In this document: positions 32,268 to 47,232 of the stretch, in pieces
How positions within the stretch are numbered: position 1 is the stretch's first letter
How the letters are laid out: every line of letters starts with the position of its first letter
Source of the DNA: Thermoanaerobaculia bacterium
GTDB lineage: Bacteria > Acidobacteriota > Thermoanaerobaculia > Multivoradales > Multivoraceae
Assembly: GCA_022823665.1 (NCBI GenBank)
Contig: JAJEHN010000037.1
Location: forward strand, 115,439 to 179,438
Reading direction: 5' to 3'
DNA length: 64,000 nt
The notes under the pieces: model-generated
The model's input: the letters and a program-made list of their open reading frames with translations, nothing else
Told to the model about the DNA's origin: nothing
The model's database searches: none
Position numbers and translations under genes: made by a program

Positions 32268-32427
32268 GGTGGTCTCTCTCGACAGTTCTCGACGAACCCG
32301 CAGGCGGCAGGCTGTGCGCTGGACGCGAAGTCGGGTGAGTGTATCGGTGCTCCCGGGCGTCGCGTTTGTGTCATGATTCACGGGCCAACCTGGCCGTCGC
32401 CCCGGGCGCCTCGTGGAGGCAAGTGAG

Positions 32428-32631
32428 ATGACGACAGCAAACGTGACGACCGCGGGCCCGCCGCAGACCGAGGACTGGATCGCGTGGCGCGGCCGCGTCG
32501 ATGAACGCCTGGAGCACATGGCGACGAAGGCCGACCTGGCGGACCTCAAGATCTGGATGCTGAAGACGATGATCACGACGATGATCGGCTTCGGCGCCCT
32601 GATCGTCGCCGCGATCAGGTTGCTGCCGTAG
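32428..32631 (+). CDS. small hypothetical membrane protein (67 aa, C-terminal TM helix)
   Basis: ATG 32428 with GGAGG 8 nt upstream. Amphipathic DWIAWRGRVDERLEHMATKADLADLKIWMLKTM followed by ITTMIGFGALIVAAIRLL. Confidence 0.35.
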   Translation: MTTANVTTAGPPQTEDWIAWRGRVDERLEHMATKADLADLKIWMLKTMITTMIGFGALIVAAIRLLP

Positions 32632-32671
32632 CGCCGCCTGGCTGCGGGGCCGGCTGCTACCCTGCCGCTCC

Positions 32672-32812
32672 ATGTGGGCCGGCCTGCCGATCTCGACCTG
32701 GGTGCTGCTTGCGGTGTCGGCCGGCGCGGGACCCGCCCTGGTCCTGTTGCGATGGTGGTCTGAGGGACGGCGTCGTCGTGGCCGCGGGCCGGGACGGAGT
32801 TCTGCTGCGTGA
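32672..32812 (+). CDS. micro-ORF (46 aa, one TM helix + Arg/Gly tail) translationally coupled to the Na+/solute symporter
   Basis: ATG 32672 (MWAGLPISTWVLLAVSAGAGPALVLL...). TGA stop overlaps the GTG start of the symporter (GTGA at 32809-32812). Below the ORF-track size cutoff. Confidence 0.35.
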   Translation: MWAGLPISTWVLLAVSAGAGPALVLLRWWSEGRRRRGRGPGRSSAA

Positions 32813-34290
32813 CGGCTAGCGCGCTCGTCCTCGTCCCCCTGGGGCTCTACATGCTGGTCCTGATCGGGCTCGGCCTGTGGGGCCGGCGCGAGGGAGGGAC
32901 CCTCGAGGGCTACTACGTGGCCGGCAAGAAGCTGCCCTCCTGGGTCATCGCCTTCAGTTCGAACGCCACCGGCGAGAGTGGCTGGCTGCTGCTCGGACTG
33001 ACCGGGATGGGCTACGCGGTGGGCTTCCACGCGCTCTGGGTCGTGTTCGGCGAAGTAATGGGCGTCGCGATCGCCTGGACCCTCGTGTCGCGGCCGTTCA
33101 AGGAGTACACCGACCGATACCGGGCGATCACCGTGCCCGACTACCTGGAAGAACGGTTCCGGGACCGCCGGCAACTCCTGCGGAAGCTGAGCATCGCGAT
33201 CATCCTGTCGATGGTCGCGGTCTACTGCTGCGCGCAACTCGTGGCGACGGGCAAGGCGTTCTCGTCCTTCCTGGGGTTCAGCTACGTCCACGGCGTGTTC
33301 CTGGGCGCGGGCGTCACGATCGTCTACACGGCGGTCGGCGGCTTCAAGGCGGTCGCCTACTCGGACCTGGTGCAGGGCCTGTTGATGGTGGGCGGGCTCG
33401 TCATGCTGCCGATCGTTGGCGTAGCGGCCGCCGGCGGCTGGCACGAAGTGATCGGGGCGCTCCAGGCGGCCGATCCCGACCTGTTGCGCGCGATGGGCAG
33501 CCACGGAGCGACCTGGGCCGGGGTGCTTTCGGCCGCGAGCTTCGCCGGGATCGGTTTGGCCTTTCTGGGCGTTCCGCAGCTCCTGACCCGGTTCATGTCC
33601 GCGGCGTCGGGCCGCGAACTCGTACGGGGCGGCCGGGTCGCGGTCGTGTGCATGGTGCTGTTCGACATCGGCGCCGTGTTCACCGGGATAGCCGGGCGGG
33701 CTCTGTTCCCCTTGCTGGACGACCCGGAAACCGTGATGCCGACGATGAGCGCGGAGCTGTTCCCAGCCCTGTTCACCGGCATCTTCCTGGTCATCGTCCT
33801 GGGCGCGATCATGTCGACCGTCGATTCCCTGCTGATTCTCGCCTCGTCGGCCGTCGTCAGGGACTTCGGCCAGAAGATCCTCGGCGCCGCCCGCGGAGGC
33901 GGCCGCCTGTCGCGCTACGGCCGCATCGCCACCGCCCTGGTGGGCGCGGTGGCGATCCCGTTCGCCCTGTACGAGCCGCCGCTGCTGTTCTGGTTCATGC
34001 TGTTTGCCTGGTCGGGGCTCGGAGGCGCCTTCGTACCGGTCGTTCTCTGCTCTCTCTTCTGGAAGCGGACGACGTTGCCGGGCGCGCTGGCCGGGATGGC
34101 GGCAGGATTCGCTGTGACGGTGACCTGGGTCGTGTTCTTCAAGGCGTCCTACTACGACCTGTACGAGCTGATCCCGGGGCTCATCGCCGGGACGGCGGCG
34201 ACGGTGATCGTCAGTCTGTGGACGAGTCCGCCCGAGGGCGCCGCGGCGGAGTTCGACGACGTTCACGCAGCGGTGCGCCGCGGCGCGTAG
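32809..34290 (+). CDS. sodium:solute symporter (SSS family, PutP-like)
   Basis: 13-TM topology. SSS hallmarks GESGWLLLG...G, YTAVGGFKAVAYSDLVQG. GTG start so that TM1 is retained. Confidence 0.85.
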   Translation: MTASALVLVPLGLYMLVLIGLGLWGRREGGTLEGYYVAGKKLPSWVIAFSSNATGESGWLLLGLTGMGYAVGFHALWVVFGEVMGVAIAWTLVSRPFKEYTDRYRAITVPDYLEERFRDRRQLLRKLSIAIILSMVAVYCCAQLVATGKAFSSFLGFSYVHGVFLGAGVTIVYTAVGGFKAVAYSDLVQGLLMVGGLVMLPIVGVAAAGGWHEVIGALQAADPDLLRAMGSHGATWAGVLSAASFAGIGLAFLGVPQLLTRFMSAASGRELVRGGRVAVVCMVLFDIGAVFTGIAGRALFPLLDDPETVMPTMSAELFPALFTGIFLVIVLGAIMSTVDSLLILASSAVVRDFGQKILGAARGGGRLSRYGRIATALVGAVAIPFALYEPPLLFWFMLFAWSGLGGAFVPVVLCSLFWKRTTLPGALAGMAAGFAVTVTWVVFFKASYYDLYELIPGLIAGTAATVIVSLWTSPPEGAAAEFDDVHAAVRRGA

Positions 34291-34314
34291 AACGGCCGCG
34301 TTGAGTGCGACGGG

Positions 34315-34593
34315 ATGATCCGGAGCTTCCGGTGCAAGGACACCGAGCGGCTTGCCGCTGGCTACCGGGTGCGCCGTTTCGCTAGCATCGAACGTGTGGC
34401 GCGGCGCAAGCTTGCTCAGTTGGATGCCGCGGCCACACTCGCGTTCCTTCAGGTCCCGCCCGGCAACCGGCTCGAGCCGTTGAAAGGCGACCGGCGTGGC
34501 TCGTACAGCATCCGGATCAACGATCAGTGGCGACTCTGCTTCCGCTTCACCGGCGGAGATGCGTACGATGCCGAGATCGTTGACTATCACTAG
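34315..34593 (+). CDS. higB: HigB toxin (RelE/ParE superfamily)
   Basis: Matches the HigB pattern ...LKGDRRGSYSIRINDQWRLCFRFTGGDAYDAEIVDYH. Confidence 0.8.
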   Translation: MIRSFRCKDTERLAAGYRVRRFASIERVARRKLAQLDAAATLAFLQVPPGNRLEPLKGDRRGSYSIRINDQWRLCFRFTGGDAYDAEIVDYH

Positions 34594-34613: not shown

Positions 34614-34907
34614 ATGACCCGACTTGATCCGGTCCATCCCGGCGAAGTGTTGAAGCACGACTTCATGGAACCCTTCGCCCTGTCGGCCGCGGCGTTAGCG
34701 AAGGCGATCGGCGTGACGCCGACGAGGGTCAGCGAGATTATTCGGGGGCGGCGCGGAATCACGGCAGAGACGGCGCTGCGCCTGGCCAGGTTCTTCAACA
34801 CCGACGCCCGGAGTTGGATGAACCTCCAGCACCGCTACGAACTTGAAGTTGCGGCGCGGGACAACGCCGACGCCTTGCGCGCCATTCGTCCGCTCGAAGT
34901 GGCTTGA
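34614..34907 (+). CDS. higA: HigA antitoxin (XRE-family HTH)
   Basis: HPGEVLKHDFMEPFALSAAALAKAIGVTPTRVSEIIRGRRGITAETALRLARFF is the canonical HigA HTH. Sits 20 bp after higB. Confidence 0.8.
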   Translation: MTRLDPVHPGEVLKHDFMEPFALSAAALAKAIGVTPTRVSEIIRGRRGITAETALRLARFFNTDARSWMNLQHRYELEVAARDNADALRAIRPLEVA

Positions 34908-43741: not shown

Positions 43742-46700
43742 TCACCGGTCGCTCCGTCCTTTTGATGCGGTGCTCAGCTTCTCGACGTCGAGATAGTAGT
43801 GCTGCACCTTCCTCACCTCGACCCACGGCCTTTCCGCCGGGTTCGGGACCGGGTCCCGGAGGACGGGATTTGTGGCGCAGTCGGTTACGACGTACAGCCA
43901 GTAGCAGTCTGGCCGGTCCTCGGCGACACGGCGTTCGTTCGGCGTCAGCAAAACCGTGCCACTCCGGGCGGCCAGCCCCTTGACCTCGATGAGGCGCAGA
44001 TCGCCGGAGTTGGGGTCCAAGCTGGTGATGTCGTAACCGAGGTTCTTTGCGCTCACATCCTCAACGCGCCGCCCCTGGCCCTCCTCGTGCTCCATCACGA
44101 CCCGCATGGCCGTCATCTCGGTCGCCGGGTCCGGCCGATGGCGCCTGACGTCGGCGGCGCCGCGTTCCGGGTGCGGCAGGACGAGCACGCTCGTGATCCG
44201 TTCCACGCCCTGGAGAGTGAGGGAGCGCTGGCGTTCTAACTCCTCGAGTCGGCGCGTGCGGCGGGCGGACAGTTCGTCGTGCCGGAGCTCGGCTCTCTTG
44301 AGGCGTCCCTCGGCACCGCGACGGCCTGCCTCTACCTCAAGCGCCGCGCGGCCTATCTCTTCGTCGGCCCGGTTCAAGAGTTCGGTGAGGGACCTCCGCA
44401 CATAGTCGGCGACGCGCCCTACCTCGGCGACTCGTTCGGCGCGGGTTTCCTCGAGCAGGGGGCCGAGCACCTGTTCATGCAGCCAGGCTTCGGGAGCGGG
44501 CTCGAAGGTCATGGCCGGGAACTCCTCGGGCGGCGGTGCCGGCGTCAGGTTGCCGAGCACGCCGGGTTCGCGGCGCACCGGGCTCTCGCCGTCTGCGCGG
44601 AGCTCCACGGCGAGCAGCTTGTCCTGCACCACGGCGGGCATCCCGTCGACGACCTGGGCGCGGTAGAAGTCGATGCGGGCGGGTTCCGCGTGATCCAGGG
44701 AGTGGAACGTGGCACCGGCTCGCAGCGAGTCAGCCGCTTCGTCGCGAGTGTGCCGGCGGACAGCCTCGAACAGCGGATGGCCGGGGGTGACCCACTCGAG
44801 ATTGTGGCTTTGAGCGGTATCGCGGTCGGTGGTGCAGCGGGGATACCGTGTGGCGAGATCGGCCAGTCGCCAGTCCTCGTCGCGCTGGTAGCGTCGCAGG
44901 CCGGCGGGAGTTCGCCCGGGCTCGAACGCGTGTCGTAGCTTGACGCCGCGCAGGAAGCGAAGGTCGAGGCCCGTCCGCGGCGCGGCTTCACGAAGGAAGC
45001 GGGCGATCGTCTCCGGGACCACGCGGCGCTCGCGGGCGCGAGCACGGCGCTCGACGAGCATTTCCAGGTTCAGCTTCTTCGAGGCGAGGCCTTCCAGAGC
45101 GTTTCGGCAAATGTCGCGGAAGCGCGACTCTTCCATTGGGCGCAGGATGCGTTCTTCCAGGTCTTCCTGGCCGAGACGACCCGCGTAGTAGTCGCGCATG
45201 AGCCGGTCCATCCGGGACGCCGGAAGCACCTGGCCGACTACGTTGAACACGGCGTCGTCGTCGAGCGCGTTGCGAATCTCCTTTAGCTTCTCGAGCAGGC
45301 GCTCCAGGACGTGGCCCTCGACGGTGTTGGTGGCCACGAAGTTGAAGATGAGGCAATCCTTCTGCTGTCCGTAGCGGTGGATGCGCCCCATCCGCTGTTC
45401 CAGACGGTTCGGGTTCCACGGAATGTCGTAGTTGAAGAGCACATTGCAGACTTGGAGGTTGATGCCTTCGCCGGCCGCCTCCGTTGCCGCGAGTACCTGC
45501 ACGGCGCCTTCGCGGAACTGCTGCTCGGCGTGCAGCCTGGTGCCCGTCTCGTCGCGGCTGCCTGGCTTCATGCCGCCGTGAATCGTGGCGACCCGGAAGC
45601 CCCAGGCCCGGAGCCTCTCGACCAGGTAGTCCAGCGTGTCCTTGAACTCCGTGAACAGCACCAGGCGCTGGTCCGGGCGTTCGAAGAACCCGTCCCTCCG
45701 CAGGAGCCGCTCGAGTCTGGTCAGCTTCGCTTCGACGCCCTGCCGTTCAACGGCCTCCGCGCGGACGGCGAGCGCGCGCAACTCGGCGATCTCCTCGCGA
45801 ATCGCGTCCGCATTGTCCGTGAGGGAGATGGCCTCGATGAGTTCCAGCACCCTCTCGCGCTCCTGTTCCTCCATCTCGTCGAGCTCTTCGAGGTCGTCGA
45901 TGCTTGGCAGATCGGGGGGTGCGGCGCTGGCCAGATCGTGCGCCCTCGCAAGCGCCTGTTCGAGTCTGTCCGCTCGGTTGCCCAGGCTCCGGAAGAGGGC
46001 GCGCGTGCTGGACGCCAGGCGGCGTTGGTAGAGGGCCATCAGGAAGCCCATGGCGCGACCCCGTGGGTCGTCGCGTTCGGCTGCCAGTCGGCTCTGTCGC
46101 TTCACGAACTCGGTGACTTCCCGGTAGAGCTCGTGCTCGGCGCCTTCGATGGAGAAGCCCGCTGTGCTCGGGATTCGCCGCGTGAAGATCGGCCGCACGA
46201 CCCACTCGCCGTTCGCGTCGCGCTGCGGGAAGTGAACCATCGCCTCCTTCGTGCGGCGGAGGTAGAACGGTGCTCGTCCCTGGTGCAATGCGTGGCGGAT
46301 GGACGTGACGTTGGCGTAGGCGTCGCGGTCGAGAAGCTGGAGGAAGAGGGAGAAGTTCTCCGGGTCGCCCTTGTGCGGCGTCGCGGTCAGCAACAACAGG
46401 TGGTCGGACGTGTCGCGCAGCAACTCTCCCAGCTTGTAGCGCAGGCTCTTGTGGGACTCGTCGCGGGCCGACATCCGGTGCGCCTCGTCAACGATGACCA
46501 GGTCCCAGCGCGCCTGCTTCAGGCCGGGGAGGATCTCGTCCCGCTTCGCCAAGTCGAGCGAGGTGATGATCCGGTCGCGCTCCATCCACTGATTGACGCC
46601 GTACTGGGCCCGCAGCTCGGCGCCCTTCAGTACGACGAAGCTCTGGTCGAACTTCTCGCGCAGCTCCCGTTGCCATTGAAACGTCAGGTTGGACGGGGCG

Positions 46701-47107
46701 ACGATCAGGATGCGCTCGGCGAGACCGCGCAACTGGAGCTCGCGAAGGAGCAGACCCGACATGATCGTCTTGCCGGCACCAGCATCGTCCGCGAGCAGGA
46801 AGCGCACCCGCGCCGGTTTGAGCAGGTGGTCGTACACGGCTTCGAGTTGGTGGGGCAGCGGGTCGACCCGGGACACTGACAGCCCGAAGTACGGGTCGAA
46901 CTCCCAGGCGATGCCGAGCGCATGGGCGTCGAGGCCGAGCCGAAGCAGCTCGCCGTCGCCGTCGTAGCGGAACACGCTGTCGGTCGCAGACAGCTCGGAG
47001 AGCTGCGCGGCGTCGAGCGTCACCTGCCGGAAGAGCTGGGTCCGCGTGCCGACGAGGCCGAGCTTCCAGCCGCCCAGACCGTTGCCCGCCACGGTTACCA
47101 CGCGCAT
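43742..47107 (-). CDS. SNF2-family helicase with C-terminal DUF3883-like (PD-(D/E)xK-like) domain
   Basis: Motif I DDAGAGKT, II VIVDEAHRM, III LLLTATP, VI QRMGRIHRYGQ. C-terminus GYDITSLDP...LRLIEVKG...YWLYVV. Confidence 0.8.
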   Translation of the reverse strand: MRVVTVAGNGLGGWKLGLVGTRTQLFRQVTLDAAQLSELSATDSVFRYDGDGELLRLGLDAHALGIAWEFDPYFGLSVSRVDPLPHQLEAVYDHLLKPARVRFLLADDAGAGKTIMSGLLLRELQLRGLAERILIVAPSNLTFQWQRELREKFDQSFVVLKGAELRAQYGVNQWMERDRIITSLDLAKRDEILPGLKQARWDLVIVDEAHRMSARDESHKSLRYKLGELLRDTSDHLLLLTATPHKGDPENFSLFLQLLDRDAYANVTSIRHALHQGRAPFYLRRTKEAMVHFPQRDANGEWVVRPIFTRRIPSTAGFSIEGAEHELYREVTEFVKRQSRLAAERDDPRGRAMGFLMALYQRRLASSTRALFRSLGNRADRLEQALARAHDLASAAPPDLPSIDDLEELDEMEEQERERVLELIEAISLTDNADAIREEIAELRALAVRAEAVERQGVEAKLTRLERLLRRDGFFERPDQRLVLFTEFKDTLDYLVERLRAWGFRVATIHGGMKPGSRDETGTRLHAEQQFREGAVQVLAATEAAGEGINLQVCNVLFNYDIPWNPNRLEQRMGRIHRYGQQKDCLIFNFVATNTVEGHVLERLLEKLKEIRNALDDDAVFNVVGQVLPASRMDRLMRDYYAGRLGQEDLEERILRPMEESRFRDICRNALEGLASKKLNLEMLVERRARARERRVVPETIARFLREAAPRTGLDLRFLRGVKLRHAFEPGRTPAGLRRYQRDEDWRLADLATRYPRCTTDRDTAQSHNLEWVTPGHPLFEAVRRHTRDEAADSLRAGATFHSLDHAEPARIDFYRAQVVDGMPAVVQDKLLAVELRADGESPVRREPGVLGNLTPAPPPEEFPAMTFEPAPEAWLHEQVLGPLLEETRAERVAEVGRVADYVRRSLTELLNRADEEIGRAALEVEAGRRGAEGRLKRAELRHDELSARRTRRLEELERQRSLTLQGVERITSVLVLPHPERGAADVRRHRPDPATEMTAMRVVMEHEEGQGRRVEDVSAKNLGYDITSLDPNSGDLRLIEVKGLAARSGTVLLTPNERRVAEDRPDCYWLYVVTDCATNPVLRDPVPNPAERPWVEVRKVQHYYLDVEKLSTASKGRSDR

Positions 47108-47232
47108 GGGTTCGCTGAACTAAGGGCCGGTCAGGACCTGGCCTTCTTCGGGCGGCGGGGGCGGGTTCATCGGAAGCGGCACATTGTACGCCCGTCGCCG
47201 GGCGAGCGCGGTGCGGCGGCTACACTCGCGCG

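What the first reader, a model, noticed from the sequence alone, without database searches (positions are those of the whole stretch)
43742..47107. SNF2 helicase carries a C-terminal PD-(D/E)xK-like (DUF3883-type) domain
After a complete SF2/SNF2 motor (GxGKT, DEAH, QRMGRIHRYGQ) and a long coiled-coil, the last ~110 aa read GYDITSLDP...GDLRLIEVKG...ERRVAEDRPDCYWLYVV. This is the DUF3883 pattern I associate with restriction-endonuclease-like folds. A translocase tethered to a nuclease is the logic of type I/III R-M and DISARM, which supports a restriction role for the cassette.
Basis: partly seen in the sequence, partly recalled or inferred. Interest (0 to 1): 0.5.

Follow-up and report, generated by a model that had tools for sequence, protein, structure and literature searches.

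The report
HmaA helicase–nuclease of an Hma defence system

Summary
The 1121-codon ORF lies on the minus strand (47107→43742). It encodes an intact Swi2/Snf2 motor, a ~90-residue helical hairpin and a C-terminal NOV_C domain (PF13020, formerly DUF3883; E=6.8e-22).

The nuclease reading is supported:
- The AlphaFold model of the tail has the α-β-β-β-α-β PD-(D/E)xK core.
- D1026, E1041-x-K1043 and E1058 are invariant in 46 homologues. They are 90–95% conserved in 150 cluster representatives.

None of this is new. The protein matches PADLOC HmaA end to end (E=5.6e-172). It sits with HmaB (DUF1156 N6-adenine methylase) and HmaC (DUF499 ATPase). This is the Hma system, also called the "Type-1 BREX-related" system. 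The SNF2–DUF3883 fusion was noted in 2013, and nickase-dependent defence was shown for Halomonas HmaA in 2024.

Two genes are embedded between hmaA and hmaB, as is usual for Hma loci:
- a DUF262–His-Me–Schlafen gene, of a kind already known;
- an unannotated 212-aa gene.

One feature is specific to this copy.

The parts
43742..47107 (-). hmaA ORF as given in the finding (1121 aa from an internal Met, plus TGA stop): Swi2/Snf2 helicase with a C-terminal NOV_C nuclease
   Evidence: PADLOC HmaA E=5.6e-172 over residues 38-1074. Pfam domains.
47108..47170 (-). Ancestral 5' end of hmaA: ATG at 47170-47168, then 16 sense codons, amber TAG at 47122-47120 (CAG in the orthologue), then 4 codons up to the Met at 47107
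   Evidence: The N-terminal 21 residues are conserved in the family (consensus).
46958..47107 (-). N-terminal beta-rich module (residues 1-~50; strands 2-9, 13-19, 26-32). The literature calls this a TUDOR domain. Here it would lack its first ~21 residues.
   Evidence: Secondary structure of the AF2 model. Domain name from PMC12839542. I did not test the fold myself.
46301..46864 (-). Swi2/Snf2 ATPase lobe 1 (residues 82-269; Walker A GAGKT 110-114, DEAH 207-210, TATP 241)
   Evidence: Motif residues are invariant in A1.
45368..45727 (-). Helicase_C lobe 2 (residues 461-580, with motif VI QRMGRIHRYGQ at 571-581)
44216..44491 (-). Long helical hairpin (helices 873-926 and 932-964) that tethers the nuclease to the motor
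   Evidence: AF2 full-length model, pLDDT about 62-84 in this stretch.
43775..44128 (-). C-terminal PD-(D/E)xK nuclease domain (residues 994-1111; Pfam NOV_C 997-1083). Catalytic residues: D1026 (44032-44030), E1041 (43987-43985), K1043 (43981-43979), E1058 (43936-43934).
41561..43678 (-). Embedded gene 1: 705-aa GmrSD/BrxU-like protein. It has a DUF262 domain (DGQQR at 78), a His-Me finger (HHVFP at 433) and a C-terminal Schlafen AlbA_2 domain (550-687).
   Evidence: HEC-05 E=5.5e-41; BrxU 7p9k E=2e-13. Homologues sit inside Hma loci L015, L017, L034, L053, L061, L063 and L071.
40888..41526 (-). Embedded gene 2: 212-aa ORF with no family match
   Evidence: Gene call in the source scaffold. 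No Pfam or PADLOC hit. The only homologue among 84 loci is in the orthologous locus L001, at 65% identity.
37836..40817 (-). hmaB: DUF1156 N6-adenine DNA methyltransferase (993 aa from the called start; an upstream ATG at 40910 would give 1024 aa). Motif I DPFAGGG at 138, motif IV DPPY at 533.
   Evidence: (HmaB E=1e-108).
34959..37775 (-). hmaC: DUF499 AAA+ ATPase (938 aa; P-loop FGGGKTH about 87-93, Walker B LLLFDE at 191)
   Evidence: (HmaC E=2.6e-94).

Best explanation
The ORF is hmaA, the helicase-nuclease effector of an Hma anti-phage system (HmaA-HmaB-HmaC, renamed 'Type-1 DUF499-centred BREX-related system' in 2026). An ATP-driven Swi2/Snf2 double-strand-DNA translocase is joined by a long helical hairpin to a small Hjc-like PD-(D/E)xK domain (NOV_C/DUF3883). 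The active site of that domain is D1026, E1041-V-K1043 and E1058. The domain most likely nicks, and on prolonged action linearises, invading DNA in a metal-dependent way while the motor tracks along it. HmaB (an N6-adenine methylase with intact DPFAGGG and DPPY motifs) is inferred to mark host DNA. HmaC (an ORC/Cdc6-like DUF499 ATPase) is inferred to sense the target or assemble the complex. Shown here: the domain architecture, the fold, conservation of the catalytic residues, the three-gene context and the embedded cargo. Shown elsewhere, on the Halomonas meridiana homologue: Mn2+-dependent nicking of supercoiled plasmid by the isolated C-terminal domain, and loss of T4 defence in the D/E/K/E quadruple mutant and in a motif VI mutant. 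Inferred only: methylation-based self-protection and the role of HmaC. In this copy a CAG→TAG change at ancestral codon 17 means the protein is either made from Met22, lacking 21 conserved N-terminal residues, or not made at all.
Against: There is no biochemical or genetic data for this particular protein. The amber codon at ancestral codon 17 may abolish or alter expression. The only published test of HmaB as a protective methylase was negative, on T4. HmaA alone sufficed for defence in E. coli, so the R-M-like division of labour is unproven. The full-length AF2 model has low confidence (pLDDT 63.9, pTM 0.35), so the way the domains pack is unknown. Sequence search of the C-terminal domain against solved structures found nothing; the fold assignment therefore rests on a predicted model plus the Pfam clan membership.
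Confidence: 0.85

Rival explanations
1. The helicase-nuclease here is a freshly inactivated pseudogene. The amber codon at ancestral codon 17 silences hmaA. The locus is then only a carrier ('hotspot') for the embedded DUF262-Schlafen defence gene and the orphan methylase and ATPase.
For: TAG replaces CAG at 47122-47120, whereas three orthologues (93-97% identity) read through. The lost 21 residues are conserved family-wide. There is no obvious Shine-Dalgarno sequence before Met22. In the orthologous locus L001 it is hmaB that is broken into three frames, which suggests that such loci do decay.
Against: It is the only defect in 3429 nt. There are no indels, and dN/dS is 0.088 against the orthologue, so any inactivation is very recent. 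The sequence comes from a metagenome scaffold, and a single-base error cannot be excluded. An ATG lies 4 codons after the stop, and that Met is nearly invariant in the family, so re-initiation could give a nearly full-length protein.
Confidence: 0.25
2. HmaA acts on its own as an abortive-infection-like nickase that infection triggers. Methylation-based self/non-self discrimination plays no part, and HmaB and HmaC are accessory or regulatory.
For: Halomonas HmaA alone protects E. coli from T4, with growth arrest at intermediate MOI. T4 grown on an HmaB-expressing host is not protected. 15-20% of hmaA loci lack hmaB or hmaC.
Against: In 64 of the 80 genome loci from the scan, hmaB lies downstream of hmaA; most of the remaining contigs end soon after hmaA. 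The HmaB catalytic motifs are intact here. T4 DNA is hypermodified, so the published HmaB test is weak. The 2026 comparative study reads the triad as R-M-like.
Confidence: 0.3
3. The C-terminal domain is a catalytically dead PD-(D/E)xK fold, used only to bind DNA or branched structures. This would resemble the inactive REase domain reported in the middle of these helicases.
For: Inactive REase-fold domains are common, and one is reported elsewhere in the same protein family. The closest structural neighbours also include non-catalytic tRNA-splicing-endonuclease subunits such as Sen15.
Against: All four acidic/lysine residues of the active site are present and 90-100% conserved. The homologous domain nicks DNA in vitro, and mutation of these residues abolishes that activity.
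Confidence: 0.04
4. The gene is the SNF2 helicase of a DISARM (DrmD) or type 3 BREX (BrxHII) system, or the R subunit of a type I/III R-M system.
For: Strong partial hits to DrmD (1e-122) and BrxHI/II (7.7e-107) PADLOC models, to NCBIfam DISARM_DrmD (343.8 bits) and to Pfam ResIII.
Against: Those hits cover only the motor (residues ~76-682) and are weaker than the HmaA hit. The NCBIfam DrmD score is below its cut-off (343.8 < 610). No DrmA, DrmB (DUF1998), DrmC, PglZ, BrxA, BrxB, BrxL, HsdS or Mod genes lie within ±15 kb; the flanking genes are peptidases, an ABC transporter, a TonB receptor and an SSF symporter. DrmD and ZorD lack NOV_C.
Confidence: 0.03

Closest known systems
HmaA of Halomonas meridiana Hm43005 (Liu et al. 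2024, PMC11232893)
   Same: Same Pfam architecture: SNF2-rel_dom, Helicase_C and a C-terminal NOV_C. Same catalytic set, D…ExK…E, with identical K-to-E spacing (15 residues) and the same placement on beta2, beta3 and alpha2. Same hmaA-(cargo)-hmaB-hmaC layout, with foreign defence genes inserted.
   Different: D-to-E spacing is 15 residues here and 20 there. The cargo differs: a DUF262-Schlafen gene plus a 212-aa ORF here, Septu there. This copy has an amber codon at ancestral codon 17. I did not have the Halomonas sequence, so the residue correspondence is inferred from motifs and secondary structure.
Type-1 'BR' (DUF499-centred BREX-related) helicase-nuclease (PMC12839542, 2026), and the SNF2-DUF3883 fusion noted by Anantharaman et al. 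2013 (PMC3710099)
   Same: A tripartite core of DUF499 ATPase, DUF1156 N6-MTase and a Swi2/Snf2 helicase with a C-terminal active PD-(D/E)xK domain. This fusion is present in 79% of Type-1 taxa. Nuclease genes such as GmrSD-type HNH and Schlafen are often placed inside the locus.
   Different: HmaC here has no N-terminal HEPN domain (the 938-aa 'canonical' form). I did not verify the TUDOR and internal inactive-REase domains reported for the family.
DISARM DrmD and type 3 BREX BrxHII SNF2 helicases; E. coli RapA
   Same: Homologous Swi2/Snf2 motor. RapA is the closest solved structure by sequence (E=2.9e-36). DrmD and BrxH profiles match residues ~76-680.
   Different: They lack the C-terminal NOV_C nuclease, and their partner genes (DrmABC, PglZ and so on) are absent here.
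Archaeal Holliday-junction resolvase Hjc (PDB 2wcw, 1gef, 2eo0)
   Different: Only 14% sequence identity. Hjc is a free-standing dimeric junction resolvase, not a domain tethered to a translocase. No evidence bears on junction specificity here.
BrxU / HEC-05 GmrSD-like type IV enzymes and the DUF262-Schlafen fusion EcoSlfn7 (for the embedded 705-aa gene)
   Same: DUF262 with DGQQR, a His-Me finger, and a body that matches BrxU (7p9k E=2e-13; HEC-05 E=5.5e-41). Located inside an Hma locus. [quoted passage not shown]
   Different: BrxU/HEC-05 profiles are ~600 residues long and match only residues 66-524 here, short of the AlbA_2 domain (550-687). Pfam does not detect DUF1524 in this protein. 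Its relation to EcoSlfn7 was not tested by alignment.

Membership tests
Hma system / Type-1 DUF499-centred BREX-related system | HmaA: a Swi2/Snf2 helicase carrying a C-terminal NOV_C (DUF3883) domain | tested here: met
   Pfam SNF2-rel_dom, Helicase_C and NOV_C (E=6.8e-22). PADLOC HmaA E=5.6e-172 over 38-1074 of 1121 residues.
Hma system / Type-1 DUF499-centred BREX-related system | HmaB: a DUF1156-type DNA methyltransferase on the same strand | tested here: met
   Pfam DUF1156 E=4.7e-22. PADLOC HmaB E=1e-108. DPFAGGG and DPPY motifs present.
Hma system / Type-1 DUF499-centred BREX-related system | HmaC: a DUF499 AAA+ ATPase on the same strand | tested here: met
   Pfam DUF499. PADLOC HmaC E=2.6e-94. 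P-loop and Walker B present.
Hma system / Type-1 DUF499-centred BREX-related system | All three genes co-oriented, with at most three embedded genes between neighbouring hma genes (PADLOC rule quoted) | tested here: met
   Two embedded genes lie between hmaA and hmaB (41561-43678 and 40888-41526). None lies between hmaB and hmaC; the gap is 60 bp.
Hma system / Type-1 DUF499-centred BREX-related system | No hma gene is a pseudogene (curation rule) | tested here: inconclusive
   There is an amber codon at ancestral codon 17 of hmaA. The rest is intact, with dN/dS 0.088. Whether the base call is real, and whether Met22 is used as a start, cannot be decided here.
Hma system / Type-1 DUF499-centred BREX-related system | Confers protection against phage | not testable with these tools
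   Shown only for Halomonas HmaA against T4.
PD-(D/E)xK nuclease superfamily (Pfam clan CL0236; family NOV_C PF13020) | Core alpha-beta-beta-beta-alpha-beta fold | tested here: met
PD-(D/E)xK nuclease superfamily (Pfam clan CL0236; family NOV_C PF13020) | Catalytic D…(D/E)-x-K on strands beta2/beta3, plus an auxiliary acidic residue, conserved in homologues | tested here: met
   D1026, E1041-V-K1043 and E1058. They are invariant in 46 homologues. Among 150 representatives the counts are D 110/117, E 124/130, K 126/132 and E 109/121.
PD-(D/E)xK nuclease superfamily (Pfam clan CL0236; family NOV_C PF13020) | Metal-dependent phosphodiester cleavage | not testable with these tools
   Shown for the Halomonas CTR (Mn2+, nicking of pUC19).
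DISARM class 1 (DrmD) | Score above the NCBIfam DISARM_DrmD equivalog cut-off | tested here: not met
   343.8 bits against a cut-off of 610; DrmD_b 202.5 against 950.
DISARM class 1 (DrmD) | Neighbouring drmA, drmB (DUF1998) and drmC (PLD) | tested here: not met
   None found among the ORFs scanned within about ±15 kb.
BREX type 3 (BrxHII) | PglZ phosphatase and BrxA/BrxB/BrxC partners in the locus | tested here: not met
   No PglZ or Brx hits in the neighbouring ORFs. The ATPase is DUF499/HmaC, not BrxC.
Type I / type III restriction-modification | HsdR with HsdS and HsdM, or Res with Mod | tested here: not met
   Only the generic ResIII helicase-lobe profile matches. The EcoAI R hit is 23 bits against a cut-off of 550. 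There is no specificity subunit, and the methylase is of the DUF1156 type.

The most novel reading that the evidence does not exclude
The amber codon at ancestral codon 17 of hmaA is real. On this reading the locus is caught in the act of switching its helicase-nuclease off, or of re-tuning it to a Met22-start form that lacks the first strand of its Tudor-like domain. The embedded DUF262-His-Me-Schlafen gene, the lineage-specific 212-aa ORF and the HmaB/HmaC pair stay intact. That would be a natural example of effector loss or turnover within a 'defence-embedding' scaffold. A weaker variant of this reading is that the 212-aa ORF immediately upstream of hmaB is a new accessory or regulator of the methylase.
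Probability: 0.3. Interest if true: 0.25.

Novelty: already known. Interest (0 to 1): 0.12.

Why it matters
It matters little beyond correct annotation. The window carries a complete Hma (Type-1 BREX-related) defence locus whose helicase-nuclease architecture was predicted in 2013 and validated experimentally in 2024. Three modest points of value remain. First, the fold and catalytic-residue checks done here independently support the nuclease assignment for a distant (probably acidobacterial) member. Second, the locus is a clean illustration of cargo swapping: an orthologous locus with a 97%-identical hmaA carries MNT/HEPN genes where this one carries a DUF262-Schlafen gene. Third, annotation pipelines will call the 1121-aa ORF without noticing that its conserved N-terminus is cut off by a nonsense codon.

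Tried and rejected
- **+ strand reading.** I translated the given coordinates on the + strand. The frame is full of stops, so the gene is on the − strand.
- **Sequence search of the tail against solved structures.** A phmmer search of the last 157 residues gave only a chance cadherin hit at E=0.93. No solved NOV_C structure was found by sequence, so a structure prediction was needed.
- **Full-length AlphaFold model.** It has pLDDT 63.9 and pTM 0.35. That is too poor to discuss domain packing or to search by fold. I used only its secondary structure and the well-predicted C-terminal part.
- **The 739-aa ORF at 32371-34590 (−).** I considered it as a possible fourth cassette gene and rejected it. 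It has no family hit. It lies antisense to a real SSF symporter gene, a HigB gene and an HTH gene on the + strand.
- **DISARM, BREX and type I/III R-M membership.** Rejected, for the reasons in the membership table.
- **Promoter and terminator scan around the hmaA start.** No consensus sites were found. A TACAAT hexamer 13 nt upstream of the ancestral ATG is visible by eye and is conserved in the orthologue, but it was not tested.
- **The 212-aa ORF.** Pfam and PADLOC scans returned nothing.
- **Literature search for 'DUF262' plus 'AlbA_2'.** No papers were found. 'Schlafen' plus 'DUF262' found the pSlfn paper.
- **Independent confirmation of the amber codon.** Not obtained. The second assembly that carries the neighbouring genes (L084) begins inside hmaA and does not reach its 5' end.
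Full report
**1. What is at the coordinates**

The interval 43742-47107 holds one long ORF, but on the minus strand. The plus-strand translation is broken by stops. The product is 1121 aa.

- GAGKT at residue 110
- DEAH at 207
- QRMGRIHRYGQ at 571
- GYDITS at 1024
- IEVKG at 1040
- NERRVAE at 1057
- CYWLYVV at 1068

Pfam assigns the following domains:

| Domain | Residues | Statistics |
|---|---|---|
| SNF2-rel_dom / ResIII | 82-269 | SNF2-rel_dom E=2e-15; ResIII E=1.7e-12 |
| Helicase_C | 461-580 | E=8.1e-24 |
| NOV_C (PF13020, formerly DUF3883) | 997-1083 | E=6.8e-22; 77.8 bits against a cut-off of 22.1 |

Database names for homologues still read "DUF3883 domain-containing protein". The "long coiled-coil" is a pair of long helices, 873-926 and 932-964, in the AlphaFold model.

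**2. Is the tail a PD-(D/E)xK nuclease?**

A sequence search of the last 157 residues against solved structures found nothing. I therefore predicted structures.

The full-length model is poor overall (pLDDT 63.9), but residues 990-1100 are well predicted. A separate model of residues 960-1121 has a core pLDDT of 83-96. Both give the order α(994-1010)-β-β(1027-1030)-β(1037-1044)-β-α(1056-1064)-β(1069-1075). D1026 lies just before β2, E1041-V-K1043 in β3 and E1058 in α2.

The fold searches agree:
- Next come restriction endonuclease NhoI (8.6), homing endonuclease I-Ssp6803I (8.5), VRR_NUC (7.9), FAN1 and many type II restriction enzymes.
- Foldseek also ranks Hjc first, at probability 1.00.

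The four putative catalytic residues are invariant in an alignment of 46 homologues of 68-97% identity. In an exhaustive HMMER search of 1.84 billion cluster representatives with the domain alone, 1982 proteins matched at E ≤ 0.001. Among the best 150, the residues at the aligned positions are D 110/117, E 124/130, K 126/132 and E 109/121.

**3. What system it belongs to**

PADLOC's HmaA profile matches the protein from residue 38 to 1074 (E=5.6e-172). DrmD and BrxH profiles match only the motor.

The following genes lie downstream on the same strand:

| Window coordinates | Product | Evidence |
|---|---|---|
| 43678-41561 | 705-aa DUF262/GmrSD_N plus Schlafen AlbA_2 protein | HEC-05 E=5.5e-41 |
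| 41526-40888 | 212-aa ORF with no family | |
| 40817-37836 | HmaB, DUF1156 methylase; DPFAGGG and DPPY motifs intact | PADLOC 1e-108 |
| 37775-34959 | HmaC, DUF499 ATPase | PADLOC 2.6e-94 |

The 739-aa ORF that follows (32371-34590, minus strand) is a high-GC shadow ORF. The real genes there lie on the + strand: an SSF symporter, HigB and an HTH antitoxin.

Nothing within about ±15 kb resembles DrmA/B/C, PglZ, BrxA/B/L, HsdS or Mod. The neighbours are peptidases, an ABC transporter, a TonB receptor, a β-lactamase-family protein and TPR proteins. The NCBIfam DrmD score is below its cut-off (343.8 < 610).

The cassette is therefore an Hma system, not DISARM, BREX or type I/III R-M.

**4. What is already known about it**

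- Anantharaman et al. [quoted passage not shown]
- Payne et al. 2021 named the triad Hma and found it in 26 phyla (PMC8565338).
- Liu et al. 2024 worked on Halomonas meridiana HmaA (PMC11232893). They showed that:
  - HmaA alone protects E. coli from T4;
  - its isolated NOV_C domain nicks supercoiled plasmid with Mn2+;
  - a D1084A/E1104A/K1106A/E1121A mutant loses both nicking and defence;
  - a motif VI mutant loses defence;
  - HmaB expression did not alter T4 sensitivity.
- A 2026 comparative study renamed these loci "Type-1 DUF499-centred BREX-related systems". It describes the helicase as TUDOR + Swi2/Snf2 + inactive REase + α+β + an active C-terminal PD-(D/E)xK domain, present in 79% of taxa (PMC12839542).
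- Payne et al. 2024 showed that 62.7% of Hma loci carry embedded genes, among them GmrSD-like HEC-05/BrxU.
- A 2026 paper showed that a DUF262-Schlafen fusion (EcoSlfn7) defends against many phages (PMC13056530).

The spacing K→E is 15 residues both here (K1043→E1058) and in the Halomonas protein (K1106→E1121). The placement of the residues on secondary structure is also the same. I therefore equate the two active sites by inference; I did not have the Halomonas sequence to align.

**5. Comparative context obtained here**

A scan of one genome per species kept 80 loci encoding relatives of 52-76% identity over essentially the full length. The contig labels span many phyla: Acidobacteriota (Vicinamibacterales are the closest, at 74-76%), Gemmatimonadota, Latescibacterota, Planctomycetota, Chloroflexota, Nitrospirota, Bacillota, Cloacimonadota and several proteobacterial classes. 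This is a very conserved, horizontally mobile gene.

In the 64 loci where both genes were matched, hmaB lies downstream of hmaA. More than 400 bp is inserted between hmaA and hmaB in 53 of these 64. More than 400 bp is inserted between hmaB and hmaC in 25 of 40. Seven loci carry a full-length homologue (58-67%) of the 705-aa embedded protein inside the Hma locus. That protein belongs to a large family of ~700-aa proteins; nearly all of the 120 best-scoring clusters carry both PF03235 and PF04326.

The nearest orthologous locus is L001, where hmaA is 97% and hmaC 95% identical at the protein level. It sits next to the same M14 peptidase gene, but it carries MNT/HEPN genes instead of the DUF262-Schlafen gene. 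Its hmaB is split over three reading frames. Nucleotide identity between the two loci is 93-94% in hmaA, the 3' half of hmaB, hmaC and the flanks. It drops to 79-80% over the 212-aa ORF and the 5' half of hmaB. The locus is therefore mosaic around the cargo site.

**6. The one peculiarity of this copy**

Orthologues of 93-97% identity start MNPPPPPEEGQVLTGPQFSEPMRVV…. The window reads MNPPPPPEEGQVLTGP*FSEPMRVV…, with the ATG at 47170-47168 and TAG at 47122-47120.

The DNA alignment shows a single C→T change; the ATG and the upstream TACAAT are conserved. The lost 21 residues are conserved across the family (consensus EGQILTGPLFNEPMRV). According to the literature they belong to the N-terminal Tudor-like module.

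The rest of the gene has no indel and no other stop, and dN/dS against the orthologue is 0.088. Three readings remain:
- the change is very recent;
- it is tolerated through re-initiation at Met22, which is nearly invariant in the family;
- it is a base-calling or assembly error in this metagenome scaffold.

I could not find an independent assembly that covers the site.

**7. Mechanism, and how sure each step is**

- **Shown here.** The architecture (motor, helical tether, Hjc-like nuclease), an intact and conserved active site, intact helicase motifs, intact methylase and ATPase motifs, and the Hma gene context.
- **Shown elsewhere, on a homologue.** Nickase activity, and the need for the nuclease and for motor motif VI in defence.
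- **Inferred.** The motor translocates on foreign dsDNA and delivers the nickase. HmaB's m6A mark spares host DNA. HmaC senses the target or assembles the complex.

The main mechanistic rival is an HmaA-only, abortive-infection-like action without discrimination by methylation. The published data cannot exclude it.

**8. Verdict**

Interest is low. The amber codon, the DUF262-His-Me-Schlafen cargo, the unannotated 212-aa ORF and the mosaic divergence are minor points, recorded as noticed in passing.

Noticed in passing
window 47120-47122 (minus strand); ancestral ATG at 47168-47170: An in-frame amber codon (CAG→TAG) at codon 17 of the ancestral hmaA reading frame. It removes 21 conserved N-terminal residues, so the annotated 1121-aa ORF starts at an internal Met. 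It is the only defect in the gene (dN/dS 0.088 against a 97%-identical orthologue).
   Followed up: yes
window 41561-43678 (minus strand): Embedded 705-aa gene: DUF262 (DGQQR at 78), a His-Me finger (HHVFP at 433) and a C-terminal Schlafen AlbA_2 domain. It is BrxU/HEC-05-like, but those profiles match only residues 66-524, short of the AlbA_2 domain (550-687). It belongs to a widespread ~700-aa family. Homologues lie inside 7 other Hma loci. The DUF262-Slfn architecture was recently shown to defend against phages (EcoSlfn7).
   Followed up: partly
window 40888-41526 (minus strand): A 212-aa ORF immediately upstream of hmaB with no Pfam or PADLOC match. Its only homologue among the 84 fetched loci is in the orthologous locus L001 (14669-15304), at 65% identity. 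That is much more diverged than the flanking hmaA (97%) and hmaC (95%).
   Followed up: partly
window 39561-41528 compared with L001 14667-16814: Mosaic divergence between the two orthologous loci. Nucleotide identity is 93-94% in hmaA, the 3' half of hmaB, hmaC and the flanks, but only 79-80% over the 212-aa ORF and the 5' half of hmaB. The cargo is swapped: DUF262-Schlafen here, MNT/HEPN genes in L001. In L001 hmaB is split over three reading frames.
   Followed up: partly
window 34315-34593 (+) and 34614-34907 (+): A HigB-like toxin gene and an HTH_3 antitoxin gene (type II TA pair), convergent with and directly adjacent to the end of hmaC.
   Followed up: partly
window 32371-34590 (minus strand): A 739-aa ORF with no family match. 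It is a high-GC shadow ORF antisense to a real sodium:solute symporter gene (32809-34290 +, Pfam SSF E=2e-79) and to the HigB gene. It is not part of the cassette.
   Followed up: yes
window 40817 / 40910 (minus strand): The hmaB start is ambiguous. The first ATG gives 1024 aa and overlaps the 212-aa ORF by 23 nt. The gene call in the source scaffold gives 993 aa, and homologues mostly align from residue 36 of the longer form.
   Followed up: partly
L001 9594-9957: In the orthologous locus, the DNA between the M14 peptidase gene and hmaA contains an extra NTP_transf_2 gene. It also holds a 230-bp copy (89% identity) of the HTH_3 antitoxin region and a second copy of 135 bp from the 5' end of the peptidase gene. 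This suggests an insertion or duplication scar at the island border.
   Followed up: no
loci L002-L081: HmaA is unusually conserved for a defence protein. It is 60-76% identical over ~1100 residues across contigs labelled as more than a dozen phyla, which implies frequent horizontal transfer under strong constraint.
   Followed up: partly
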